DNA of 64,000 nucleotides from Paludibacteraceae bacterium (GTDB lineage: Bacteria > Bacteroidota > Bacteroidia > Bacteroidales > Paludibacteraceae). The stretch covers positions 78 to 64,077 of the forward strand of contig JAVBMA010000008.1 in the NCBI GenBank assembly GCA_031553005.1, in the 5' to 3' direction. The notes under the pieces are model-generated. The model searched no databases, was not told the origin of the DNA, and saw only the letters and a program-made list of their open reading frames with translations. This document shows, in pieces, positions 1 to 59,557 of this stretch (the first letter of the stretch is position 1; each line of letters opens with the position of its first letter). Position numbers and translations under genes: made by a program.

Positions 1-1847
1 AAAAGGCAATTTGTCAATAGGACAGCCGGCGGATAATTATTTTTAAAAAGATTATTCTTATTAATAAAACGCGCTTTTCCTCCTGATTCATCCAACAGTT
101 GCAAACCGCCTCCCAAAGTGGTCAGCCAAATTCGCCCCCGGCTATCCTCCAAAATATCATTTATTGCTAATGATATAGGAGAAAATTCGCTTTTTGGAGA
201 AGAGGTATATGATTGAACCGTAAATGAAACGGACTCGCGAGTCCGGGGAGTTAACTTGAATAATCCGGGATTTCCACCAATCCAAAATATGCCTTTCCGA
301 TCCTGATAGATAGACAGGACATTGGCAAAGGTGGACTCTGTTTTTGTTATTTCTCCTTTTTTATTCAAAAAACCGATGAACTGCCTGTTTTCATCATAAA
401 TCCGCACACGGTTGTCCTGCGTCGAAATCCATAACCGGTGCTTATCATCTTCGAAAAGAGCCAGAATATCGTTAGCTTCCGTATATTCCAACGAACTTTT
501 GCATTGTGTAAAATGAAAAGAAGAGTTTAATGAAACACATTTCCGGATACCTCCATAATGAGTTGTCATCCAAAAGACTCCGGCAGTATCGGAAAATGAT
601 TTATAAACAACCGAAGAAAACATCCCTTGCCCATTTTCACGGCTGAAGTAGGGTTTACTTCCTGCATAATTATCATTATACCAAACTTTTCCCGGCAGCG
701 GGGGCATCAGCCAGAGTTTATCTTTATCGTCCTTGAAAGAGAGAAAAAACGATGATTTACGGGATAAAGGGAAAGAGGTAAAATCTTCCTGGTAATAACG
801 AAACGGCATATAATATACCTTATCCTCCTTCGGATTATAGCGGATAAATCCAAATACATCGCCCGGCTTCATCCATATATCGCCTTGCATATCCTTCCAC
901 GAATTTTCTATTTCATCCGAAAGCATCCCTTTTACTTTACCGGAAAGAAAATGCCTGAGCTTGTTCGTGCTGTGGTTCAATAGAAAAAAGCCGTCGGAAT
1001 CGGTAGAAATAAAACAGACAGAGTCATTTAACGCTAATATATTATTGAGGTTGGAGGTAACCGGTAATTGAAAAACAGTAAATCTTTTTTTCGATTTGTT
1101 ATAACGGAAAAGCCGGCCTTCAGAGCCTGAAACCAACAGTTCTTCATTTGTCTCAACAGATGCAAAAAGAGCATTTTGCTTTGCCGAATCTTCCCTTTCG
1201 GTCAGGTAATAGCCCGAAGGTTCTTCCTCTCCTTCCGAAACAATTGCAATGCCATGTTCCGTAAACAACCACATCCGCTGGTCTTTATCCTGATAGATAG
1301 AATGAACTTCATGACCTGTTTTTTGTTGGTTTTGCGAGCAAAACAGCGTCAGTTTAACGGAAAAATCCGAAGTATCGGTTACCGCCCGTATGCATCCGTT
1401 ATCATAGCCCATCATCCAGATTTCCCCCGAAGAAGTTTTTTCCAAACGTTCAACGGAAATGTAATTATCTCCCCTGTTCTCGTCTGCCGACGGGTACAAC
1501 TGAAATGTTTCCGACCGTGAATCGAAACGAAAAACCTGCCCCATATAATTGACCACCCAGAAAAATCCGTAATCGTCTTTCAATATTTGCTGAAACCTGT
1601 TGCTGATACTTCGTTTCAGTTCTTTGGAGCTCGCTTTATAGTTTTTAAAATTATATCCGTCAAAACGACTCAGCCCGTCTCCGGTGGTAAACCAAAGAAA
1701 GCCCTCATCGTCTTTCAACATATCCGTCACCGAATTTTGGGACAAACCATTCTCTACCGAATAAGTTTCGGATATAATCTGATATTGCGCATTTGCATGC
1801 ACAATAAACCCGGTTAACAGTATAAATATGAAAATATATTTTTTCAT
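1..1847 (-). CDS. Sensor protein N-terminal region with two-component-regulator propeller repeats (hybrid two-component-system-like); 3' end runs off the left edge
   Basis: Absent from the ORF track (no in-window stop). Reverse-complement translation from the ATG at 1847-1845 gives MKKYIFIFILLTGFIVHANAQYQIISETYSVENGLSQNSVTDMLKDDEGFLWFTTGDGLSRFDGYNFKNY... I saw no stop down to position 1. Signal peptide plus repeated GLSxN / W-x-T motifs typical of Reg_prop repeats. Confidence 0.6.
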   Translation of the reverse strand, partial: MKKYIFIFILLTGFIVHANAQYQIISETYSVENGLSQNSVTDMLKDDEGFLWFTTGDGLSRFDGYNFKNYKASSKELKRSISNRFQQILKDDYGFFWVVNYMGQVFRFDSRSETFQLYPSADENRGDNYISVERLEKTSSGEIWMMGYDNGCIRAVTDTSDFSVKLTLFCSQNQQKTGHEVHSIYQDKDQRMWLFTEHGIAIVSEGEEEPSGYYLTEREDSAKQNALFASVETNEELLVSGSEGRLFRYNKSKKRFTVFQLPVTSNLNNILALNDSVCFISTDSDGFFLLNHSTNKLRHFLSGKVKGMLSDEIENSWKDMQGDIWMKPGDVFGFIRYNPKEDKVYYMPFRYYQEDFTSFPLSRKSSFFLSFKDDKDKLWLMPPLPGKVWYNDNYAGSKPYFSRENGQGMFSSVVYKSFSDTAGVFWMTTHYGGIRKCVSLNSSFHFTQCKSSLEYTEANDILALFEDDKHRLWISTQDNRVRIYDENRQFIGFLNKKGEITKTESTFANVLSIYQDRKGIFWIGGNPGLFKLTPRTRESVSFTVQSYTSSPKSEFSPISLAINDILEDSRGRIWLTTLGGGLQLLDESGGKARFINKNNLFKNNYPPAVLLTNCL

Positions 1848-20479: not shown

Positions 20480-22669
20480 ATGGCTACTTTACGATTTGAA
20501 GCTCTCCGGGAACTTGCACAAAGAAAACCAATGGAAGTAAATCCTCCGTCCGAAAAACTTTCCGATTATTTCGGAGTAAATGTTTTTTGTAGGGAAAAAA
20601 TGCAGGAATATTTGTCAAAAGACACATTCAAAGCATTTGTTGCAGCAGTAGAACAAGGTGTTTTATTCGACCGGAATATTGCAGATCAGATTGCCATGGG
20701 AATGCAAAAATGGGCTAAGGAACGTGGTGCTACACATTATACGCATTGGTTTCAACCATTGACAGATGGAACTGCAGAAAAGCATGATGGATTTATTGAT
20801 TTCGGAGACGACGGAAAAATAATCGAGCGTTTTTCGGGCAAACTGCTGATTCAGCAGGAACCGGACGCTTCTTCTTTTCCAAGCGGAGGTATCCGTAATA
20901 CATTCGAAGCAAGGGGATATACCGCCTGGGATCTCTCCTCTCCCGCTTTCGTTGTTGGTTCTACTCTCTGTATTCCTACTATTTTTATTTCATATACCGG
21001 CGAAGCGTTGGATTATAAAACACCCTTGCTGAAAGCGATAAATGCGGTAGACAAGGCGGCAGTAGAAATTTGCCAGTTCTTTGATAAAAATATAACCAAG
21101 GTAAATACCAATTTGGGTTGGGAACAAGAATACTTCTTAATTGACAGTGCCTTATATAATGCCCGTCCCGATTTATCATTGACCGGACGAACACTGATGG
21201 GACACGCTTCGGCCAAAGACCAACAGTTGGAAGACCATTATTTCGGTTCCATTCCCGAACGGGTCACCGCTTACATGCGCGACTTGGAGATTGAAGCCCA
21301 TAAACTAGGCATTCCGCTGAAAACAAGGCACAATGAAGTAGCTCCGAATCAGTTCGAGTTTGCCCCTATTTTCGAAGAAGCCAATCTGGCGAACGACCAC
21401 AACCAGCTGTTCATGGATCTGATGAAACGTATTGCCAGAAAGCATCATTTTCAGGTACTTCTGCACGAAAAGCCATTTGCAGGAGTAAACGGATCGGGCA
21501 AGCATAACAACTGGTCATTATGTACGGATACCGGAATCAACCTCCTTTCTCCGGCAAAAAATCCGAAAGGAAATATGCTCTTCCTTACATTCCTTGTAAA
21601 CGTTATGACTGCTGTTTATAGAAATCAGGATTTATTGAGGGCATCCATTATGAGTGCTGGAAATACGTACCGTCTGGGTGCCAATGAAGCGCCTCCGGCT
21701 ATCCTTTCCGTTTTTCTGGGGCAAAATCTTTCCGGCATGCTCGATAATTTAGTAGCGCGTGTAGGCGACAATAAGATGACACCGGAAGAAAAAACAGCGC
21801 TAAAACTGGGAATTGCCCGCATTCCGGAAATTATGTTGGATAATACAGACCGTAACCGGACTTCGCCTTTTGCTTTTACCGGAAATCGTTTTGAATTCCG
21901 CGCCGTAGGTTCGTCGGCAAACTGCGCCGCCTCTATTATAGCCCTGAATGCGGCGGTTTCTCATCAATTGAACCTTTTCAAAAAAGAAGTTGACAGTTTG
22001 ATGGAAAAAGGAGTTGGAAAAGACGAGGCTATATTTCAAACATTGAAACGCCTGATTATAGAATCCAAACCGGTTCGTTTTGAAGGTGACGGATATTCAG
22101 AAGATTGGAAAAACGAAGCCGTTAAACGTGGCCTCACAAACATTACAAATGCACCGGAGGCTATCGGAAAATATTTGGAAGAACCTGCTCGCCGCGTATT
22201 AATTGGAGAAAAAATATTTAATGAAACGGAACTACACAGCCGGGTGGAAGTTGAATATGAGAAATTTTCAAAGAAAGTACAAATTGAATCCCGCGTATTG
22301 GGAGATCTGGCTATCAATCATATCGTACCGACGGCTGTTACTTATCAAAACCGTTTGATTAAGAATCTGTGCGGATTGCAGCAGTTGTTTTCTCAGGAAG
22401 AGTTTGAGATGCTCTCTTCTGACCGCAAAGAATTAATAAGGGAGATTGCAAACCATATTACCACCATCAAGCTACTGGTAAAAGATATGACGGCAAACCG
22501 CAAAGAGGCAAACACCTCTTCTTGCGAAGAAGAAAAGGCAAAACTCTATGACCAGAAAGTAAAACCGGTGATGGAAGCTATTCGTAGCCATATAGATCAA
22601 CTGGAACTGGTAGTAGACAATGAAATCTGGCCCTTGCCGAAATACAGGGAATTACTCTTTTCAAAATAA
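20480..22669 (+). CDS. glnN: Glutamine synthetase type III
   Basis: 729 aa from ATG 20480 (MATLRFEALRELAQRK...). Size and motifs (NEVAPNQFE, NGSGKHNNWS) are typical of GSIII. The TTG start in the track at 20417 overlaps the promoter box. Confidence 0.9.
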   Translation: MATLRFEALRELAQRKPMEVNPPSEKLSDYFGVNVFCREKMQEYLSKDTFKAFVAAVEQGVLFDRNIADQIAMGMQKWAKERGATHYTHWFQPLTDGTAEKHDGFIDFGDDGKIIERFSGKLLIQQEPDASSFPSGGIRNTFEARGYTAWDLSSPAFVVGSTLCIPTIFISYTGEALDYKTPLLKAINAVDKAAVEICQFFDKNITKVNTNLGWEQEYFLIDSALYNARPDLSLTGRTLMGHASAKDQQLEDHYFGSIPERVTAYMRDLEIEAHKLGIPLKTRHNEVAPNQFEFAPIFEEANLANDHNQLFMDLMKRIARKHHFQVLLHEKPFAGVNGSGKHNNWSLCTDTGINLLSPAKNPKGNMLFLTFLVNVMTAVYRNQDLLRASIMSAGNTYRLGANEAPPAILSVFLGQNLSGMLDNLVARVGDNKMTPEEKTALKLGIARIPEIMLDNTDRNRTSPFAFTGNRFEFRAVGSSANCAASIIALNAAVSHQLNLFKKEVDSLMEKGVGKDEAIFQTLKRLIIESKPVRFEGDGYSEDWKNEAVKRGLTNITNAPEAIGKYLEEPARRVLIGEKIFNETELHSRVEVEYEKFSKKVQIESRVLGDLAINHIVPTAVTYQNRLIKNLCGLQQLFSQEEFEMLSSDRKELIREIANHITTIKLLVKDMTANRKEANTSSCEEEKAKLYDQKVKPVMEAIRSHIDQLELVVDNEIWPLPKYRELLFSK

Positions 22670-22682
22670 AAAACAGACAAAT

Positions 22683-22768
22683 AAACCGATAGCCGGATAA
22701 GCGAATAGATATTTACAAATTTTCCAATATTGGGGAATGTATCTATACGTTTATCCGGCTACCGGTTT
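22683..22768 (+). terminator. Long imperfect hairpin after the GSIII gene
   Basis: AAACCGATAGCCGGATAAGCGAATAGAT ... ATCTATACGTTTATCCGGCTACCGGTTT, about 25/28 paired. Confidence 0.5.
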
Positions 22769-22866
22769 ACTCGTTTTGTAACTTTGTAACTCATAAACTA
22801 CCTATTTGTCAACAATATTTATTAGATTTGTAGTCAGATCAATTTAGTACTACAACATAAGGTTTT

Positions 22867-23571
22867 ATGGCTGCTAAGAAGGAAGAGGAAGATTATAAGA
22901 GCATTGACGAAATTTCGGATATATGGAAAATGCTGACTCCCGAACAAACGGAATATCTAAAAAACAATTATCAGGTTCAAAAATATAAAAAGAACGAAAT
23001 AATTTATTGTGAAGGAGAAACTCCCACTCATGTGTTGTGTCTGGTAAAAGGGAAAGTCAAAATATTCAAAACCGGAGTTGGCGGACGCAGCCAGATCGTG
23101 CGCATGGTAAAGCCTTATGAAACATTTGCCTACCGGGCAATGTTTGCCGAAGAAGATTTTGTAACAGGCGCTTGTGCTTTCGAACCGACAGTCATATATG
23201 CCATTCCTAAAATTGTTATGAAAAGCCTTATCTCACAAAACAGCCAACTGGCTTGGTATTTTATTAATGCTCTATCTGTTGACTTGGGAATAGCCGATGC
23301 CCGCGCTGTTAGCCTGACACAAAAACACATTCGCGGCCGATTGGCAGAGTCTTTACTTTTCCTGAAAGAAAACTACGGATTGGAAGAAGACGGAGCTACA
23401 TTGAGCATATATCTCTCCAGAGAAGATCTGGCAAATCTCTCCAACATGACTACCTCAAATGCGATACGTACATTATCTAACTTTGTATCCGAAAAAATTA
23501 TCACAATGGATGGGCGGAAAATTAAAATTATTGACGAAGAACACTTGAAGAGAATCAGTAAAATAGGATGA
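22867..23571 (+). CDS. Crp/Fnr family transcriptional regulator
   Basis: 234 aa with a cNMP-binding-like N-domain and a C-terminal HTH (REDLANLSNMTTSNAIRTLS). Confidence 0.85.
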   Translation: MAAKKEEEDYKSIDEISDIWKMLTPEQTEYLKNNYQVQKYKKNEIIYCEGETPTHVLCLVKGKVKIFKTGVGGRSQIVRMVKPYETFAYRAMFAEEDFVTGACAFEPTVIYAIPKIVMKSLISQNSQLAWYFINALSVDLGIADARAVSLTQKHIRGRLAESLLFLKENYGLEEDGATLSIYLSREDLANLSNMTTSNAIRTLSNFVSEKIITMDGRKIKIIDEEHLKRISKIG

Positions 23572-23627
23572 TTGGCGAATTGAGGAACTGATAAATCGGC
23601 GAACTGATAAATTGACTAATTGAATTT
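23569..23627 (+). repeat. Stop-rich short-period array starting with the regulator's TGA
   Basis: TGATTGGCGAATTGAGGAACTGATAAATCGGCGAACTGATAAATTGACTAATTGAATTT. Confidence 0.7.
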
Positions 23628-23749
23628 AAGAAAACGAAAAAAATACCTTTTATATCTATCTGTAATAAATTGACATGTGTCGAGAAGAAGGCAAAACGGG
23701 CAGAGTCATTAGAGTAGAAAAAGTTATAATAATCTAAATTTATAAAGCA

Positions 23750-24913
23750 ATGAAGAAAATTTTATTTATTTCGACATTTTTTTGTCTTATAGCAAATGTG
23801 CAGATTTATGGACAAAGAGTCGAAACTATACATTTAACCGAAGCCGGTACACTTTCTAAGATTGTAACCAATCCCGTAGAAGTAACTCATCTAACCCTAA
23901 CTGGCACAATTGATGCCCGTGACATTTATTTTCTTGATGCATTATTTTACCTCGAAAGTTTAGATTTGAGTGATGCAAATATAGTGGAATTTGAAGGTAT
24001 CTCAAAACCGTCAAACCCTTATGATCAAAGTCGATTTTATCCGGCCAACCAATTACCCACATTTGCTTTTTCGTTATCCCGTTTATCTTCTCTGATTTTC
24101 CCAAAAACTTTAACAAGTATTGATTTTTATGGTATTAATCAAGATATGATGCCTTTGCCAATCCTTGTTATTCCTGAAGGTGTAACAACAATAGGAGATC
24201 GTTTTGCGTCATATCAACCTTTACTTAAAGCACTTACTTTACCAAGTACTTTAATGACTCTTGGAGACAGAAGCTTTATTAGTAGTGAAAATCTTTCCGT
24301 GATAATCAATTTCAATCCTACTCCGATAAATATTGATAATAGTGTTTTTGAAAGAGTGAATAAAAATGCCTGCATACTCTACGTCCCAATAAAAAGTAAA
24401 AGTGATTATGAGGTTGCAAATGTATGGAAAGAGTTTAATATCATCGAACTTCCCGAAATTGCAAAAGACGACATTACCATAACTCCATCAGACACCACAG
24501 CGTTAATAGAATGGAAATCCTACGAAAATGCAGAAGGCTACAAATTAATAATTTACGGAAATGAAACACATACTGATACTATTCTGATATTGGAGTTTGA
24601 CACAAAGGGTAAGTTACTTCGTTCGGAAAATACAACACTTTTCCATACAATAAAGAACTTGTCGACTAGTACCGATTATCATTATACATTTGAAATACTT
24701 GGTGTTAGCAATGTTGTATTGGCAAATCAATCGGGCGAATTTTCTACCACAGGCGAACCGACAAACATTATAAGAACAGTGAGTGCATCAAACAAAATCG
24801 AAGGTTATTACAGCATTTGGGGAACAAAACTACTTGAAGAACCAAAAAGTGGAATGTACATCATTTTGTATAGTAACGGACAGACAGAAAAAAGAATAAA
24901 AATAAATTATTAA
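23750..24913 (+). CDS. BspA-type leucine-rich-repeat surface protein with an Fn3-like domain and a T9SS-type C-terminal domain
   Basis: 387 aa with a signal peptide, LRR units (IPEGVTTIGDRF..., LPSTLMTLGDRSF), ITITPSDTTALIEWKSYENAEGYKLIIY, and C-terminal YYSIWGTKLLEEPKSGMYIILYSNGQTEKRIKINY. Confidence 0.7.
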   Translation: MKKILFISTFFCLIANVQIYGQRVETIHLTEAGTLSKIVTNPVEVTHLTLTGTIDARDIYFLDALFYLESLDLSDANIVEFEGISKPSNPYDQSRFYPANQLPTFAFSLSRLSSLIFPKTLTSIDFYGINQDMMPLPILVIPEGVTTIGDRFASYQPLLKALTLPSTLMTLGDRSFISSENLSVIINFNPTPINIDNSVFERVNKNACILYVPIKSKSDYEVANVWKEFNIIELPEIAKDDITITPSDTTALIEWKSYENAEGYKLIIYGNETHTDTILILEFDTKGKLLRSENTTLFHTIKNLSTSTDYHYTFEILGVSNVVLANQSGEFSTTGEPTNIIRTVSASNKIEGYYSIWGTKLLEEPKSGMYIILYSNGQTEKRIKINY

Positions 24914-24952
24914 TCTGCCAACCTTGACGGAAAGCAATAAAATATTTTTAAA

Positions 24953-25804
24953 ATGAAAAAAATAATTTTTCTTTTAGCAATATGCTTAATTAGCTCAATG
25001 AGTTTTGCCGAAATAATAGAAAGCGGTAATTTGAATGAAAATATTACATGGACGTTGGATAGTGATAGCACGTTAATGATTAACGGAGAAGGAGACATAT
25101 CAAGTTATCCTCCTTGGTGTAGTTATAGTATTACAAACAAAATAAAACAAATAATAGTATCAGAAGGCATTACTTCTGTCAGCAGTTTAACGTGTGGAAA
25201 TTACAATAATGTTTCATCAGTACAATTACCAAATTCATTAAAAACTATTGGTTATTGTGCTATTGGAGCGTGTAATGTAAAATCAGTCACAATTCCAGAA
25301 AATGTTACTACTATAGAAGGATTGGGATTTTATAAAATAGGTCTTGACACATTATATTACAATGCTATAAATTGTGTAGTCGAAGACCTTGATTTAGGTC
25401 TTAAAATTGTATTTATCGGAAAAAAAGTCACTCGTATTCCCGAATTTTTATTTGGCAAATGGAACGGATTAGAGCAATTAACAGTTTTATCGAATAATCC
25501 TTCTAATATAATTGTGGAAGAGAACGTTTTTAAATATGTGGATAATAACATACCTATTTATGTACCTAAGTGTGCAATAGAAGCGTATCAAACATCTGAG
25601 GGTTGGAATAAGTTTACAAATTTTATAGGTATAGAATCAGAGCTTTGCGAAGAAAGAACTAATATTGCGGAAACAAAGTGTATGTCAGACGAGATTGTTG
25701 GGTATTATAGTCTTATGGGTACAAAACTATCCGAAGAGCCAGAAAATGGCTTATACATCATTTTATATAGTAACGGACAGATAGAAAAAAGAATAAAAAA
25801 ATAA
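24953..25804 (+). CDS. BspA-type LRR protein with a T9SS-type C-terminal domain
   Basis: 283 aa with LRR units (LPNSLKTIGYCAIGACN, IPENVTTIEGLGF). The C-terminus is homologous to that of the preceding gene. Confidence 0.7.
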   Translation: MKKIIFLLAICLISSMSFAEIIESGNLNENITWTLDSDSTLMINGEGDISSYPPWCSYSITNKIKQIIVSEGITSVSSLTCGNYNNVSSVQLPNSLKTIGYCAIGACNVKSVTIPENVTTIEGLGFYKIGLDTLYYNAINCVVEDLDLGLKIVFIGKKVTRIPEFLFGKWNGLEQLTVLSNNPSNIIVEENVFKYVDNNIPIYVPKCAIEAYQTSEGWNKFTNFIGIESELCEERTNIAETKCMSDEIVGYYSLMGTKLSEEPENGLYIILYSNGQIEKRIKK

Positions 25805-25851
25805 ACTATTAATCTGCCAACCTTAACGGAAAGCTATAAAATATCTTTAAA

Positions 25852-26698
25852 ATGAAAAAAATAATTTTTCTTTTAGCAATATGCTTAATTAGCTCAATGA
25901 GTTTTGCCGAAATAATAGAAAGCGGCAATTTGAATGAAAATATTGCATGGACGTTGGATAGTGAAGGGACATTAATGATTAATGGAGAAGGAGAAATGCC
26001 GGACTATACTTCTGAGAATAATCCTCCTTGGTTTCAATATCGTGAGAAAATAACAAGTATAAAGATAAAAGGAGTATCAACTATTGGAGATTATGCTTTT
26101 AATAACTGTTATCTTACCACTTATGTCGAAATACCAAATTCAGTAATACAGTTCATTTCAAAGTTTACGCATAACAACTCTAACTCTTCCCCCCAATTTA
26201 ATAAGTATTGGACGTACCGCTTTTAATGCTTGTTTTTCACTAATAACCATTGAGATTCCCGCAAGCGTAACAACTATTGAAGACTTTGCTTTTGCACACT
26301 GTTTGGCAAAGAAAAAAATAATTATTAATTGGGAAACACCATTAGTTATCAATGGCCCAATTTTTGATATGATTTCGGGATGCGAACTCCTTGTTCCGGC
26401 AGGCACAAAAGAACTTTACGAAAAAGCCGTTGTTTGGAAAGATTTCCAAATAATAGAACAAATTGCCACTTCTCAGATTGACTCAAAAGAAAAATCGCCC
26501 ATTAATATATATACCGTTAACAACACAATATTCATAGAGAATGTAAAAAGTGAAAATATTACAATATACAACGCGCGAGGACAACTGATTACAAGTATAA
26601 GAAATACAAACAGAATAATGCAAATAAATGTACCACAAGCAGGCGTTTACCTTGTTTGGATAGACGAAAAGGTTTGGAAAATAGCAGTTACGAATTAA
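25852..26698 (+). pseudogene. Disrupted third BspA-type LRR / T9SS cargo gene (frameshifted)
   Basis: ORF 25852..26226 shares its first about 45 codons with 24953... The LRR-consistent reading continues in the +1 frame from 26147 (..SSFQSLRITTLTLPPNLISIGRTAFNAC..) to 26698, ending in a canonical T9SS CTD (ITIYNARGQLI...GVYLVWI). Confidence 0.6.
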
Positions 26699-26812
26699 CA
26701 GTAAAGAAGACAGACAAATAAACAGCCGATAACATACTATTTTTTGCATGAATAGAGGTGGAAACTGACAACAAATAAAAAATAAAATCAACAACAAAGA
26801 TAGACTAAAAAC

Positions 26813-28393
26813 ATGAAAACAATTCCAAGACTTATTTTTACAATAGCATTCACAATACTTGCGTGTGGATTATCAACCGCACAAACAACAAAAATCAAGA
26901 GTCAGTGGCAAACCGAAAAGGATAAAAATTTTTCAAAATCATCTTTTTTCGAGCATTTTCTTGGTCAAGATGAAGACAACTATTATATACTACTTCAAAA
27001 AACACGTAATACTACCTACTCGAATAGAGAGTACGAAATTGCGAAATACGACAAAAAAACACTTTCGCTAAAAGAACAGAAGAAAATTGATATGGACGTG
27101 GCTCTTGTTGAGAAAGTTCGTAATATAGCAGGAGAAACGTATGCTTATATTTGGGAAAATCCTCCGACTTCTCGCCTTAATTATATGAGCCGTTATAACA
27201 ATAAAAAACACGGTTTCTATAAATTTAATACGGAAAAAATGGAGTTTGAACTTTTACCCGGTCGAATAGATTTTTTGCCTTATGATTGGCCGTGTGAATA
27301 CTTCCTATCGCCGGATAGTTCCAAAATCCTATTCGTATACAACAAAATGTCAAAAAAAGAAAACTTACACCGCCTTGTTTTGGTTGATAATAAGATGAAT
27401 AAGATATGGGAAAAAGAGATAAATCTCCCTTTTAATTATTTTATTCTGAACGATGGGTTTGGCGATAGTTTCCTGACAAATACAACTATTGCGTTGGATA
27501 ATGCCGGTGCGGTTTATTTTGCAGATCGTATTTATTCTTCAAATACGGATTATAATTACCATATTTTGAAATATGAGGGAGGAAAATTTTCGCAAGATTT
27601 CAAATTGACAATGAACGGATTAAAATACAATAATTGCCAAGTAAATTTGGATAAAAACGATAATTTATTTGCTATTGGTTTTTATTCCGAAAACGAAAAA
27701 AAAATAGGAGGATACTATTTTACATTGGATAAAAATTTAACCCAAGCGAAAAATCTTTACTTCAAAGAGATGAAACTTGAACAATTGTATCTGACAAATC
27801 CAAAAGAAACGAAAAAGAAAAGTGTGGGCGAGATTTTAGAAGAATTTGCTTTTTACCCGGCAGAGTATAGTGCAAACGGCGATATAATAATAGGAGCAGA
27901 AGGCTCTGCCAGACCATCGAAAACTGAAACACCTCAAAAAGCAGCTAATGGAGGAAACAAAACAGAACGTATTCGTAAGGGTAATACCGATACTTACGTT
28001 TTCAGAATAAACCCCGAAAACGGTATAAGTTGGTTAAAACGAGTGCCCAAAAAACAAGAAATTGCAATAGATTATTCCGGTTCGAATAAAGAAGGTTGCA
28101 AATTCTTTGTGGAAAATGACAATGTTGTTCTGCTTTTTAACGATCATCCTAAAAATATCGATTTAGATGAAAATGCGACTAATGTATTGTTGGCTTGGAA
28201 TCTCAATGTCAAACCAATGATTGTAACCATTGACGCATACGGCAAACAAAAACGGCAACTTCTCAGTGTACCTGACAAGTTTATTTTAATCCCACAAATA
28301 TCAAATGGTTATTTTGTTGCCAATAACAAAATACTTATTTCAGCTCGCTATAAAAATGATGCCAAAATAGGAATTATAACGGTAGGAGAATAA
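26813..28393 (+). CDS. Hypothetical secreted protein (526 aa)
   Basis: Signal peptide; no motif I recognise; Asn/Lys/Tyr-rich. Confidence 0.5.
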   Translation: MKTIPRLIFTIAFTILACGLSTAQTTKIKSQWQTEKDKNFSKSSFFEHFLGQDEDNYYILLQKTRNTTYSNREYEIAKYDKKTLSLKEQKKIDMDVALVEKVRNIAGETYAYIWENPPTSRLNYMSRYNNKKHGFYKFNTEKMEFELLPGRIDFLPYDWPCEYFLSPDSSKILFVYNKMSKKENLHRLVLVDNKMNKIWEKEINLPFNYFILNDGFGDSFLTNTTIALDNAGAVYFADRIYSSNTDYNYHILKYEGGKFSQDFKLTMNGLKYNNCQVNLDKNDNLFAIGFYSENEKKIGGYYFTLDKNLTQAKNLYFKEMKLEQLYLTNPKETKKKSVGEILEEFAFYPAEYSANGDIIIGAEGSARPSKTETPQKAANGGNKTERIRKGNTDTYVFRINPENGISWLKRVPKKQEIAIDYSGSNKEGCKFFVENDNVVLLFNDHPKNIDLDENATNVLLAWNLNVKPMIVTIDAYGKQKRQLLSVPDKFILIPQISNGYFVANNKILISARYKNDAKIGIITVGE

Positions 28394-28478: not shown

Positions 28479-29231
28479 ATGAGCAATCTTAAATTTTCAC
28501 TCACATTAGGCTTATTTGCCATAATGTTCAGTTCTTATGGCCAAGAAATATCTGATTCAACGTCAACAAATCCAAATGAACCACTGGCTTACGACAAAGG
28601 TGTAGTAATTAACGGTGTAAAATGGGCAACCCGAAATGTGGACAAACCCGGTACTTTTGCAACTAAACCCGAAGATTCAGGGATGTTCTATCAATGGAAC
28701 AAAAACATAGGTTGGTGTGCTGAATCGCCAATTACTGCATCAGACGGAACAACTAAATGGGATAAATTCTGGGAGTGGACGAAAGGAGGAAAACGCGTAA
28801 AAGAAGGAACATGGACAGGTGGTGATATGACTACTTGGGAAAGAAGTAATCAACCCTGTCCGAAAGGATGGCGTTTACCCACAAGCGAGGAACTAAAAAC
28901 ACTCGCCAAAGCAAAAGGTAAATTTACAGAATTGAATGGAGTGAAAGGATACACATTCGGCAGCGGTTCCAATTCAATTTTCATACCGGCAGCAGGTTTC
29001 ATTTCTCAAAGTACCTCAGGAAGTTTTAAAAATAAAACTACTACAATTTATAATTTTAGTAGGAATGTAGAAGGCTATATTTGGAGTGACACAAAGTATA
29101 AGTACGAATCACCGAGCGAAGGACATACTGCGAATACGTTGTTTTTTGACAAATATAACGTTATGGTAAACATAAAAAACAATAGAAGTCCGATTGATTT
29201 AGGATTATCATGTCGTTGCGTTGCTGAATAA
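28479..29231 (+). CDS. FISUMP (Fibrobacter succinogenes major paralogous) domain protein
   Basis: VINGVKWATRNVD..., FYQWN and CPKGWRLPTSEELKTL are hallmarks of the Fib_succ_major domain. Confidence 0.75.
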   Translation: MSNLKFSLTLGLFAIMFSSYGQEISDSTSTNPNEPLAYDKGVVINGVKWATRNVDKPGTFATKPEDSGMFYQWNKNIGWCAESPITASDGTTKWDKFWEWTKGGKRVKEGTWTGGDMTTWERSNQPCPKGWRLPTSEELKTLAKAKGKFTELNGVKGYTFGSGSNSIFIPAAGFISQSTSGSFKNKTTTIYNFSRNVEGYIWSDTKYKYESPSEGHTANTLFFDKYNVMVNIKNNRSPIDLGLSCRCVAE

Positions 29232-57988: not shown

Positions 57989-59557
57989 TCATTCATTTTC
58001 AGTAGTACCTTTTCGAATTTGCCTCAACATAATCATGACTTCGGCAACGGCTAATATTGAAAATAAGACGACAAAAAGCCAGAAAGTAATCTGAACGGAA
58101 GAGGCATCAATGCGGGAGACAGCAACCATTGTTGGCATCAAATCCTGAATCACCCAAGGTTGCCTGCCTACCTCGGCTACAATCCAACCTGTCTGAGATG
58201 CAAGATATACTAACGGTATGGATAAAAGAGAAAGCCAGAGTATGGGTTTAAATTTTTCTAATTTATCCTTTTTAGAAAGAAATAACATTACTGCAAACAG
58301 GAGGATAAACCAGAATCCCAACCCAACCATGATGCGAAACGAATAATAAGTCAATGGTACATTGGGAACAATATCTTCGGGCGAATTGAGATAACCATAA
58401 CCGAAATAGGCAAATTTTTCTTTCAGAAAAGTTTTTCCTTCCGGCGTATCTCTATCAAAATAACGTGCCAACTCCTCTGTTTTTTCTTTATTGCCGTCTT
58501 TCTTAGCATCGCTATATTCTTTCAAAAGCCCGATTGCTTCTTTGCCCCGTGTCATTTTCTCCCGTGCGGGTAATATTCCTTGTGCTTCGTTTCCATACGT
58601 TAAGTCATTGATGCCCGGAACATAGGCATTAAAATTGCCAAAGCCTAAAAAAGAGAGCATATAGGGAATCTCAATATTAAAATAATAACTCTCCTTCTGT
58701 GGTTTGCCCGGTTTCATATCCGGCTTCAATAAGCCTATCACACTCAATCCGGCTCCACTCCTGCCTTCATACAACGATTCGGCAGCAGCCAGTTTCACAG
58801 GTTGGTACTTTGATACACTCTTGGCTGAAGTATCTCCGGTATAGACAGTCAAAAGCGACATGCAAAGTCCGAAAACAGAAGCCATATAAATACTTTTTTT
58901 GGCGAGTACTATTTCCCTGCCTTTTATCAGGAACCAAGAGCTTACTCCTATCATAAAAACAGATGCCAGCAGGTAAGATGAAAAAATAGTATGAAAAAAC
59001 TTATTTATAGCCATCGGATTGAAAAGGACTTGCCAGAAATCGTTCATTTCATTACGCATTGTTTCGGGATTAAAGTGCATCCCGACAGGATTTTGCATCC
59101 AGCCATTTGCTACCAGAATCCATAATGCCGAGAGGCTTGCCCCGATAGCAGTCAGCCACGTCGCCGTCAAATGGACTTTCTTGCTGACCTTATTCCATCC
59201 GAAAAACATAACGGCAATGAAGACACTTTCCATAAAAAATGCAAAAATACCTTCGATAGCTAAAGGAGCTCCGAATATATCGCCTACAAACCACGAATAA
59301 TTAGACCAGTTTGTACCAAATTCAAATTCGAGGATAATACCGGTAGCAACACCGACGGCAAAATTTATCCCGAAAACCACCATCCAGAAACGGATTATAG
59401 GTTTCCACTCTTCGTTTCCGGTACGGACATAAATGGTCTCCATAAACGCTATCAGAAAAGTAATTCCAAGTGTCAACGGAACAAAAAGCCAGTGATAAAT
59501 TGCCGTTATGGCAAACTGAAGCCGAGACCAGTCTATCAGTGCAATATCATATTCCAT
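57989..59557 (-). CDS. cydA: Cytochrome bd ubiquinol oxidase subunit I
   Basis: 522 aa, with WSRLQFAITAIYHWLFVP and GWIVAEVGRQPW motifs. Confidence 0.95.
   Translation of the reverse strand: MEYDIALIDWSRLQFAITAIYHWLFVPLTLGITFLIAFMETIYVRTGNEEWKPIIRFWMVVFGINFAVGVATGIILEFEFGTNWSNYSWFVGDIFGAPLAIEGIFAFFMESVFIAVMFFGWNKVSKKVHLTATWLTAIGASLSALWILVANGWMQNPVGMHFNPETMRNEMNDFWQVLFNPMAINKFFHTIFSSYLLASVFMIGVSSWFLIKGREIVLAKKSIYMASVFGLCMSLLTVYTGDTSAKSVSKYQPVKLAAAESLYEGRSGAGLSVIGLLKPDMKPGKPQKESYYFNIEIPYMLSFLGFGNFNAYVPGINDLTYGNEAQGILPAREKMTRGKEAIGLLKEYSDAKKDGNKEKTEELARYFDRDTPEGKTFLKEKFAYFGYGYLNSPEDIVPNVPLTYYSFRIMVGLGFWFILLFAVMLFLSKKDKLEKFKPILWLSLLSIPLVYLASQTGWIVAEVGRQPWVIQDLMPTMVAVSRIDASSVQITFWLFVVLFSILAVAEVMIMLRQIRKGTTENE

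What the first reader, a model, noticed from the sequence alone, without database searches (positions are those of the whole stretch)
24800..25994. Conserved junction cassette between tandem LRR/T9SS genes (CTD end + intergenic + signal peptide), with divergent LRR cores
The segment from about 24800 to 25095 recurs at about 25697 to 25994. It covers the last about 35 codons of gene 1, a 39-nt spacer and the first about 48 codons of gene 2. From 24851/25748 onward there are only scattered substitutions: the spacer ATTAATCTGCCAACCTT(G/A)ACGGAAAGC and the first 31 codons MKKIIFLLAICLISSMSFAEIIESGNLNENI are nearly identical. The LRR regions between the junctions are not alignable by eye. Homogenised ends with variable middles are what gene conversion or cassette exchange produces in surface-antigen families.
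Basis: partly seen in the sequence, partly recalled or inferred. Interest (0 to 1): 0.6.

Follow-up and report, generated by a model that had tools for sequence, protein, structure and literature searches.

The report
Recombined junctions in tandem LRR genes
Three neighbouring surface-protein genes of an uncultured gut-type Bacteroidales bacterium share a freshly copied "gene end + spacer + export signal" block while their binding domains differ completely, which is a clear but ordinary case of gene conversion in an adhesin family.

Summary
The repeat is real. 24803-25098 recurs at 25700-25997 (89% over 298 nt, E 1e-110) and is the only DNA-level similarity in the locus. The identity profile is a step: 70% in the first 54 nt, 96% over 24857-25065, 80 nt identical at 24947-25026, then 39%.

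The three genes are BspA-type LRR_5 proteins. The third is split by an out-of-frame deletion.

The step is not explained by protein-level selection. Third codon positions and the spacer are conserved inside the tract and random outside it. The core of gene 2 is orthologous to a sister-species gene (68% aa). Its signal peptide and upstream DNA match that ortholog at 42% but match paralog gene 3 at 100%. The sister species has its own pair of paralogs with a shared 5' block. This is segmental concerted evolution, meaning gene conversion or unequal recombination.

- The first half of the "CTD" part is only family-level conservation, also seen in dispersed paralogs.
- The tails of genes 1 and 2 fail T9SS CTD models.
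- There are no silent cassettes, invertible elements or recombinases, so programmed antigenic variation is not indicated.

Strain and read tests were impossible. This is a new member of a known kind.

The parts
23750..24913 (+). Gene 1 (387 aa). It has a signal peptide, a BspA-type LRR_5 domain, an FN3-like module and a short conserved C-terminal tail (...GYYSIWGTKLLEEPKSGMYIILYSNGQTEKRIKINY).
   Evidence: ORF. Pfam LRR_5 scores 36.9 bits against a cut-off of 27.7. The C-terminal module is 45% aa / 70% nt identical to paralogs on C64 and C33. TIGR04183 gives only 10.4 bits, E 0.51.
24803..25098 (+). Junction copy 1: the tail end of gene 1, a 39-nt spacer, and the signal peptide plus N-cap (codons 1-48) of gene 2.
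   Evidence: It matches 25700-25997 at 89.3% over 298 nt by blastn.
24857..25065 (+). Recently homogenised tract, copy 1 (copy 2 is 25754-25964). It has 8 substitutions and one 2-nt indel in 209 nt (96%). It includes an 80-nt perfect identity at 24947-25026.
   Evidence: Per-segment identities and the mismatch list are. Third-codon identity is 100% in codons 1-24.
24914..24952 (+). Spacer 1 (39 nt). It has no terminator, no TAnnTTTG promoter box and no significant RNA structure.
   Evidence: Folding z-scores are -1.2 and -0.2.
24953..25804 (+). Gene 2 (283 aa), a mosaic. Its 5' block resembles gene 3, its LRR core is orthologous to a sister-species gene, and its tail resembles gene 1.
   Evidence: LRR_5 scores 36.5 bits. 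The core is 68% aa identical to G003 C30 gene B and 28% to gene 3. The AF2 model (pLDDT 84) shows a signal-peptide helix at 4-13, an N-cap beta-sheet at 21-45, an LRR solenoid at 58-227, a disordered linker at 234-244 and tail strands at 248-282. The best PDB folds are gut-bacterial LRR_5 proteins 4h09 and 4fs7.
25700..25997 (+). Junction copy 2: the tail end of gene 2, a 47-nt spacer (25805-25851), and the signal peptide plus N-cap of gene 3.
25852..26226 (+). Gene 3, 5' fragment (124 aa): signal peptide, N-cap and the first LRR units. The frame is lost after ...IPNSVIQ near 26140-26150.
   Evidence: LRR_5 scores 27.2 bits, just below the cut-off.
26150..26698 (+). Gene 3, 3' part in the +1 frame: LRR units, a C-cap and a canonical T9SS type A C-terminal domain that is unlike the tails of genes 1 and 2.
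   Evidence: Three-frame translation. TIGR04183 scores 25.4 bits against a cut-off of 23; PF18962 scores 22.2 bits, below its cut-off of 27. LRR_5 scores 47.6 bits.

Best explanation
**What the locus is.** It is a three-gene tandem array of BspA-type (LRR_5) secreted or surface binding proteins. Shown: there is no terminator and no TAnnTTTG promoter box between the genes. Inferred from that: the genes are probably co-transcribed.

**What the repeat is.** The repeated junction is the footprint of recent non-allelic homologous recombination between adjacent junctions of the array. This could be gene conversion or an equivalent unequal-crossover or duplication-fusion event. A tract of about 210 nt was copied from one junction to the other. 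It runs from the last about 19 codons of the upstream gene's tail, through the stop codon and spacer, to about codon 38 of the downstream gene (signal peptide plus the first strands of the N-terminal cap).

**Where the tract ends.** Both ends lie in sequence that all family members conserve for protein reasons. On the left this is the tail motif GxYIxLYSNGxTEK. On the right it is the motif WTLDS..L.I.GEGE, whose GGAGAAGGAGA is identical in all four genes compared. These motifs supply the homology that RecA-type recombination needs (inferred). The LRR cores are too diverged to recombine and keep separate histories.

**Result and consequence.** Gene 2 is a mosaic: a 5' block like gene 3, a core orthologous to a sister-species gene, and a tail like gene 1. 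The two 96%-identical direct repeats, with their 80-nt perfect core, should also allow precise loss or duplication of gene 2 without damaging its neighbours (inferred, not observed).

**What it is not.** No dedicated machinery is involved. This is ordinary concerted evolution of the export-signal ends of an adhesin family, not a programmed switching system.
For: 1. The identity profile is a step: 70% / 95% / 93% / 98% / 86%, then 39%. Third-codon-position identity is 100% in codons 1-24 and 25-45% beyond codon 68. The non-coding spacer is 93% identical. Protein-level selection therefore cannot explain the tract.
2. Segments have incongruent histories.
   - Gene 2 vs G003 C30 gene B: core 74% nt, 68% aa. 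Every other core pair is 28-33% aa.
   - Signal-peptide codons 1-20: gene 2 vs gene 3 100%; the G003 pair 93%; between species 41-42%.
   - Upstream 60 nt: 88% within G000 against 32-45% between species.
3. The sister species shows the same mosaic independently. G003 C30 and C18 share 86% over 201 nt, from -47 to +152 around the ATG. Their cores are unalignable, and their 3' parts are 83-93% identical. The right-hand boundary falls on the same GEGE motif as in G000.
4. Divergence within the tract is 4%, against about 25% between the orthologous cores. The homogenisation therefore post-dates the species split.
5. The tract ends coincide with structural module boundaries in the AF2 model: the N-cap ends at residue 45 and the tail starts at residue 248.
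6. No recombinase, inverted repeat or extra copy was found.
Against: - Only one outgroup genome (G003, 62% complete) carries an ortholog, so the phylogenetic incongruence rests on four genes.
- No strain, read or long-read data could be examined, so ongoing recombination and copy-number change are not shown.
- Gene conversion cannot be distinguished from replacement of the core by incoming DNA, or from a short segmental duplication fused to an older gene.
- The genome is a metagenome-assembled draft (77 contigs). A chimeric join through the 80-nt identical stretch cannot be formally excluded.
Confidence: 0.75

Rival explanations
1. Cassette exchange. The conserved junctions are stable handles, and the LRR core of gene 2 was brought in by homologous recombination at those handles, from another strain or species or via a circular intermediate. 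On this reading the ends were not copied between resident genes.
For: - The architecture is junction, core 2, junction, as a Campbell-type or double-crossover insertion would leave.
- The core of gene 2 is closely related to a gene in another species, and that gene sits in a different context: a TetR fragment upstream and a cadherin-like 3' end.
- Gene 1 and G003 gene A share the signal-peptide region (75% nt) and the C-terminal module (51% aa), but their middles are unrelated.
Against: - The core of gene 2 differs from the G003 core by about 25% at the nucleotide level, so there is no sign of recent transfer.
- Position is partly syntenic: a gene-1-like gene lies upstream in both species. This fits vertical descent of the core.
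- No donor copies or mobile-element genes are present.
Confidence: 0.12
2. Old tandem duplication with no recombination. On this reading the ends stayed alike because secretion signals are under purifying selection, while the LRR cores diverged under diversifying selection.
For: The N-cap motif and the tail motif are conserved at the protein level across dispersed paralogs.
Against: - Identity is 100% at third codon positions over codons 1-24 and 93% in the non-coding spacer.
- The signal peptide is not conserved between species (42%), while the core is (74%).
Confidence: 0.03
3. Assembly artefact. The metagenome assembler joined genes from different strains or loci through the shared 80-nt stretch, so the tandem order is not real.
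For: - The genome is a 77-contig MAG.
- In the sister MAG, contigs break inside the shared 3' repeat of the paralogs.
Against: - The two junction copies differ at 8 sites plus an indel. Both contain tail end, spacer and signal peptide, so at least two such junctions exist.
- The perfect stretch is only 80 nt, shorter than usual reads and shorter than large assembly k-mers.
- A gene-1-like gene also precedes the gene 2 ortholog in G003.
Confidence: 0.05
4. Programmed antigenic or phase variation system. This would be an expression site plus donor cassettes, or site-specific inversion or shuffling, using the junction as the recombination site.
For: Conserved ends with variable middles resemble pilE/pilS, vlsE or Mycoplasma vsp loci. 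The proteins are likely to be surface-exposed.
Against: - There are only two copies of the spacer plus signal-peptide block in the genome.
- Every LRR_5 hit lies in a long ORF with its own start codon, apart from broken gene 3.
- All repeats are direct, and there are no flanking inverted repeats.
- The 16 tyrosine-recombinase hits in the genome are all on other contigs.
- There is no homopolymer or simple-repeat switch at the starts of the genes or at the gene 3 frameshift.
Confidence: 0.04

Closest known systems
Flavobacterium psychrophilum tandem LRR cell-surface protein locus (Duchaud 2007; re-analysed in PMC10392669)
   Same: - Both are in phylum Bacteroidota and are tandem arrays of secreted LRR proteins.
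- In both, the N-terminal secretion peptide is conserved, the C-terminal end is conserved, and the intergenic regions are of conserved types.
- Both lack mobile-element genes.
- Both show recombination signatures and broken gene fragments (compare split gene 3).
   Different: - Here there are only three genes, against up to 19.
- The cores here are anciently diverged LRR_5 domains, not variants differing in repeat number and hypervariable positions.
- Two of the three tails here are not recognisable T9SS CTDs.
- Strain-to-strain variation has not been observed here.
Helicobacter pylori babA/babB (and homA/homB, sabA/sabB) segmental concerted evolution (Pride & Blaser 2002, as reviewed in PMC3960876)
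   Same: - The genes are adhesin paralogs in which one segment shows strong within-genome similarity while other segments follow their own allelic or orthologous history.
- The pattern is attributed to RecA-dependent intragenomic gene conversion.
   Different: - The bab loci are dispersed, and their conversion has been shown experimentally to change adhesion.
- Here the genes are adjacent.
- Here the homogenised segment spans a gene boundary (3' end, spacer, 5' end).
- Nothing here has been shown functionally.
Porphyromonas gingivalis domain rearrangement in T9SS surface proteins (Kgp/RgpA/HagA adhesin domains; PMC5266723)
   Same: It is in order Bacteroidales, and surface proteins are diversified by domain-level recombination and mosaicism.
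   Different: That case concerns large adhesin domains exchanged between strains by natural competence. This case concerns a short tract containing the export signals, homogenised between neighbouring paralogs.
Mycoplasma vsp/vlp-type loci and Borrelia Erp/OspE-F upstream homology box
   Same: A near-identical 5' non-coding region plus signal peptide is shared by otherwise different surface-protein genes.
   Different: Those systems have lipoprotein signals, promoter-borne switches or a dedicated recombinase, and many copies. None of these features is seen here.

Membership tests
BspA-type leucine-rich repeat proteins (Pfam LRR_5, PF13306) | The LRR_5 profile matches above Pfam's gathering score. 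| tested here: met
   Against a cut-off of 27.7 bits: gene 1 scores 36.9, gene 2 scores 36.5 and the gene 3 3' part scores 47.6. The gene 3 5' fragment scores 27.2, just below the cut-off.
BspA-type leucine-rich repeat proteins (Pfam LRR_5, PF13306) | A solenoid fold like the solved LRR_5 cell-surface proteins. | tested here: met
   The AF2 model of gene 2 has pLDDT 84. The best Foldseek hits are 4h09, 4fd0, 4fs7, 4fdw, PcpA (4cp6) and TpLRR (6mlx), with probability 1.0.
T9SS cargo with a type A C-terminal sorting domain (TIGR04183 / PF18962) | The C-terminal 70-100 residues match the CTD profile above its cut-off. | tested here: not met
   - Genes 1 and 2: TIGR04183 gives 10.4 bits (E 0.51) for gene 1 and no hit for gene 2. 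Pfam gives no hit.
- hhalign of the aligned tails against 32 CTDs from this genome gives 12.5% probability over 20 columns.
- Gene 3's 3' part does pass TIGR04183 (25.4 bits against 23).
T9SS cargo with a type A C-terminal sorting domain (TIGR04183 / PF18962) | The organism has a T9SS. | tested here: met
   The SprA/Sov translocon scores 2507 bits. Por_Secre_tail matches 40 times, 32 of them above the cut-off.
Segmental concerted evolution by gene conversion (bab-type) | A segment is more alike between paralogs within a genome than between orthologs, while other segments follow orthology. | tested here: met
   Signal peptide: 100% and 93% within genomes against 41-42% between them. Core: 68% aa between orthologs against 28-33% for all other pairs.
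Segmental concerted evolution by gene conversion (bab-type) | Identity extends to silent sites and non-coding DNA. | tested here: met
   Third-position identity is 100% in codons 1-24, and the spacer is 93% identical.
Segmental concerted evolution by gene conversion (bab-type) | Conversion events or chimeras are observed among strains or within a population. | not testable with these tools
No same-species sequence was found in the protein, metagenome or genome collections.
Silent-cassette antigenic variation (pilE/pilS, vlsE, msp2 type) | One expression site plus several promoterless, partial donor copies. | tested here: not met
   The genome-wide blastn, tblastn and LRR_5 scans find no further junction copies. 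All family members are full ORFs with their own start codons.
Site-specific inversion or shufflon systems (Bacteroidales invertible promoters, Mycoplasma vsp) | Inverted repeats flank a promoter or gene segment, and a nearby recombinase is present. | tested here: not met
   No relevant inverted repeats occur in 22600-27000. No Phage_integrase-family hit lies on contig C71. Serine recombinases were not searched.
F. psychrophilum-type recombining tandem LRR array | Tandem LRR genes have a conserved signal peptide, a conserved C-terminal end and conserved intergenic DNA, with no mobilome genes. | tested here: met
   The features of the known system are taken from PMC10392669.
F. psychrophilum-type recombining tandem LRR array | Copy number and gene content differ between strains. 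| not testable with these tools
   No other strain of this species is available. The sister species has a rearranged locus.

The most novel reading that the evidence does not exclude
The block "tail end + spacer + signal peptide + N-cap" could be a portable, recombinase-free handle. It would let whole LRR binding cores be inserted, deleted or swapped within an operon without disturbing export signals. The array would then behave as a population-level adhesin repertoire. Two observations fit this reading: the sister species' paralog pair ends its shared 5' block on the same GEGE motif, and gene 1 and G003 gene A share their ends but have unrelated middles.
Probability: 0.12. Interest if true: 0.5.

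Novelty: new member of a known kind. Interest (0 to 1): 0.27.

Why it matters
It gives a clean, quantified example of how the export-signal ends of adhesin paralogs in gut Bacteroidales are kept identical by recombination while the binding domains evolve independently. The tract boundaries fall on structural module boundaries. For annotation, it warns that such junction repeats can break or mis-join metagenome assemblies. It also shows that the short GYYS...YSNG..EK tail should not be called a T9SS CTD without evidence. It opens no new mechanism and settles no open question.

Tried and rejected
- **Homopolymer phase variation.** I considered the C6 run at 26189-26194 as the cause of the gene 3 frameshift. 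Rejected: the frame change lies at about 26140-26150, where part of an LRR unit is missing.
- **Regulatory RNA or attC-like structure in the spacer.** The fold is not significant, with z-scores of -1.2 and -0.2.
- **Own promoters in the junctions.** There is no TAnnTTTG box. The sigma-70-like hits are no more frequent than in shuffled sequence.
- **Strain-level comparison.**
  - Exact-pattern scans of metagenome and genome collections with the spacer found nothing.
  - A profile-guided metagenome scan found only distant LRR proteins.
  - A 26-mer conserved in the core found only the sister MAG JAISVA010000021.1.
  - A protein search found only the window's own protein and the G003 ortholog.
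- **Other species of the genus.** G001 and G002 have no ortholog of gene 2 and no copy of either 5' block.
- **Tail as a half CTD.** A profile-profile comparison gave only 12.5% probability.
Full report
**Observation**

The window region 23750-26698 holds three co-directional genes:
- Gene 1, 23750-24913, 387 aa.
- Gene 2, 24953-25804, 283 aa.
- Gene 3, split into 25852-26226 and a +1-frame continuation to 26698.

A self-comparison of 23000-27500 gives a single DNA-level hit: 24803-25098 against 25700-25997, 89.3% over 298 nt, E 4.5e-111. The spacer is 39 nt at junction 1 and 47 nt at junction 2.

The profile inside the repeat is a step:

| Segment | Identity |
|---|---|
| 24803-24856 | 70% |
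| 24857-24898 | 95% |
| 24899-24952 (one 2-nt indel that moves the stop codon) | 93% |
| 24953-25055 | 98% |
| 25056-25098 | 86% |
| following 62 nt | 39% |

The longest perfect run is 80 nt (24947-25026 = 25846-25925). It spans the last 6 nt of the spacer, the ATG and 24 codons.

**What the genes are**

- All three genes hit Pfam LRR_5, the BspA type.
- An AlphaFold model of gene 2 has mean pLDDT 84. It shows a signal-peptide helix (4-13), a three-stranded N-cap (21-45), an LRR solenoid (58-227), a disordered linker (234-244) and a three-strand tail (248-282).
- The nearest solved folds are gut-bacterial LRR_5 cell-surface proteins: 4h09, 4fs7, 4fd0, PcpA and TpLRR.
- The genome is 2.88 Mb, 38% GC, in 77 contigs. 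It belongs to a Bacteroidales lineage whose sister MAG is labelled Prevotellaceae bacterium.
- The genome has a T9SS. SprA scores 2507 bits, and 32 Por_Secre_tail domains score above the cut-off.
- Gene 3's C-terminus passes TIGR04183 (25.4 bits against 23).
- The 35-38-residue tails of genes 1 and 2 (GYYS..G.KL..EP..G.YI.LYSNG.TEK.IK) do not pass. TIGR04183 gives 10.4 bits or nothing. hhalign against this genome's own CTDs gives 12.5% probability over 20 columns. Calling these tails T9SS CTDs is therefore unverified.
- Gene 3 loses its frame after ...IPNSVIQ at about 26140-26150, where part of one LRR unit is missing. The break is not at the C6 run. Gene 3 is either a pseudogene or carries an assembly error.

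**Not selection, and not a simple duplication**

In a protein-guided codon alignment of genes 2 and 3, third-position identity changes as follows:
- 100% in codons 1-24.
- 69-94% up to codon 48.
- 25-45% beyond codon 68, which is the random level.

The non-coding spacer is 93% identical. Amino-acid identity in the cores is 12-30%. Constraint at the protein level cannot produce this pattern.

**Incongruent histories**

One genome of the same genus, G003 (JAISVA010000021.1, Prevotellaceae bacterium Mx356_bin11), carries an ortholog of gene 2 on contig C30. Identities by segment:

| Segment | Gene 2 vs gene 3 | G003 C30 vs G003 C18 | Gene 2 vs G003 C30 |
|---|---|---|---|
| Upstream 60 nt | 88% | 67% (the last 47 nt are alike) | 43% |
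| Signal-peptide codons 1-20 | 100% | 93% | 42% |
| Codons 21-48 | 90% | 79% | 74% |
| Codons 49-100 | 46% | 41% | 74% |
| Core, amino-acid level | 28% | 28% | 68% |

The ends therefore cluster by genome and the core clusters by orthology.

The G003 pair shows the same mosaic independently:
- 86% over 201 nt, from -47 to +152 around the ATG.
- Unalignable cores.
- 83-93% identity in a cadherin-like 3' part.

Its right-hand boundary falls on the same I(N/S)GEGE motif, whose GGAGAAGGAGA is identical in all four genes. Each genome has exactly two copies of its own 5' block. Divergence within the tract in this window is 4%, against about 25% between the orthologous cores. The homogenisation is therefore much younger than the species split.

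**Gene 2 is a multi-part mosaic**

- Its 5' block matches gene 3.
- Its core (nucleotide match 25012-25545) matches G003 gene B.
- Its C-cap and linker match nothing closely. G003 gene B's C-cap is actually closer to that of gene 3.
- Its tail matches gene 1.

Gene 1 and G003 gene A share the signal-peptide region (75% nt over 80 nt) and the FN3-like plus tail module (51% aa). Their middles are unrelated: LRR in gene 1, a non-LRR domain in gene A.

**What part of the "cassette" is special**

The tail-coding DNA is also conserved in dispersed paralogs. C64 matches at 78% and C33 at 74% over the same 100 nt, and the stretch TACATC.TTTTGTATAGTAACGGACAGACAGA is about 90% identical. The first 54 nt of the repeat (70%) are therefore family background. 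The spacer, the signal peptide and the N-cap start occur only at the two junctions.

**Mechanism**

The best reading is ectopic homologous recombination between neighbouring junctions, either gene conversion or an equivalent unequal exchange. The recombination would be anchored in the two motif-coding stretches that all paralogs conserve, namely the tail and the WTLDS...GEGE N-cap. The diverged cores cannot take part.

Evidence against dedicated machinery:
- No inverted repeats or terminators in the locus.
- No significant RNA structure in the spacer.
- No TAnnTTTG promoter box in the junctions.
- No tyrosine recombinase on the 65.7-kb contig.
- No silent or partial donor copies anywhere in the genome.

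A programmed antigenic-variation system is therefore unlikely. The 96%-identical direct repeats should permit precise loss or gain of gene 2. This is an inference and was not observed.

**Comparison with known systems**

- The closest described system is the tandem LRR cell-surface locus of Flavobacterium psychrophilum. It has a conserved secretion peptide, a conserved T9SS end, two conserved intergenic types, no mobilome genes, gene fragments and recombination signatures (PMC10392669).
- The evolutionary pattern is the one described for H. pylori babA/babB and homA/homB: intrastrain similarity of one segment, RecA-dependent gene conversion (PMC3960876).
- Domain-level mosaicism of Bacteroidales surface proteins is also known in P. 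gingivalis (PMC5266723).
- Earlier notes from this scan report several similar tandem LRR arrays in other phyla. I used them only as leads.

**Limits**

- Only one outgroup genome is informative.
- The genome is a MAG.
- No same-species sequence exists in the searched collections.
- Strain variation, ongoing recombination, co-transcription and the reality of the gene 3 frameshift therefore remain untested.

**Verdict**

The gene-conversion reading is supported. The T9SS-CTD label for genes 1 and 2 and the implication of antigenic cassette exchange are not supported. This is an ordinary phenomenon and a new member of a known kind.

Noticed in passing
window 26130-26230: Gene 3 is split. Frame 0 reads ...YVEIPNSVIQ and then loses LRR periodicity, stopping at 26224-26226. 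The +1 frame reads YSSFQSLRITTLTLPPNLISIGRTAF... from 26150. About 3-4 codons plus 1-2 nt of one LRR unit are missing. There is no simple repeat at the break. The cause is either pseudogenisation or an assembly error.
   Followed up: partly
window 24896-24913 vs 25793-25804: A 2-nt indel in an A-run just before the stop codon gives gene 1 a 3-residue extension (...RIKINY). Gene 2 and the dispersed paralog on C64 end in ...IKK.
   Followed up: yes
L013 (G003:C30) 1428-1718, minus strand: In the sister species, a 96-aa fragment lies between the gene-1-like gene and the gene 2 ortholog, where this window has the 39-nt spacer. The fragment duplicates the C-terminal half of the TetR-family gene at L013 4085-4843.
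   Followed up: no
L013 1-140 and L014 1-140 (G003 contigs C30 and C18): Both contigs end inside the same near-identical cadherin-like repeat of the two LRR paralogs. The assembly therefore broke at the homogenised 3' block, and the full 3' ends of both genes are unknown.
   Followed up: no
L013 1729-2754 (G003 gene A) vs window 23750-24913: G003 gene A shares gene 1's signal-peptide region and its FN3-like plus tail module (51% aa). It carries an unrelated non-LRR domain of about 150 residues in place of the LRR domain.
   Followed up: partly
window 22677-22774: A 35-nt-arm inverted repeat (86% complementary, 28-nt loop) lies between the type III glutamine synthetase gene and the Crp/Fnr-family gene. 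It is probably a terminator or a member of the hairpin repeat families noted elsewhere in this window.
   Followed up: no
own genome, outside the window: C64:59407-59464, C33:8265-8315, C54:3290-3365, C1:117558-117615; also C64:57361-57399 vs 59417-59455: Several dispersed LRR_5 genes are followed directly by 50-80-nt palindromic elements. The C64 gene is bracketed by a 39-nt direct repeat (92%). These look like REP-like hairpin elements and were not examined.
   Followed up: no
window 26813-28393: A 526-aa secreted protein has no Pfam hit. Its ortholog in G003 (73% nt) lies on a different contig from the LRR genes. The Fib_succ_major-domain gene at 28479-29231 has a counterpart upstream of the G003 LRR locus. 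The neighbourhood is therefore rearranged between the species.
   Followed up: no
own genome C74:17506-22198 and C74:12743-14900: One large LRR_5 gene on contig C74 lies within a few kb of three tyrosine-recombinase genes, unlike the locus studied here.
   Followed up: no
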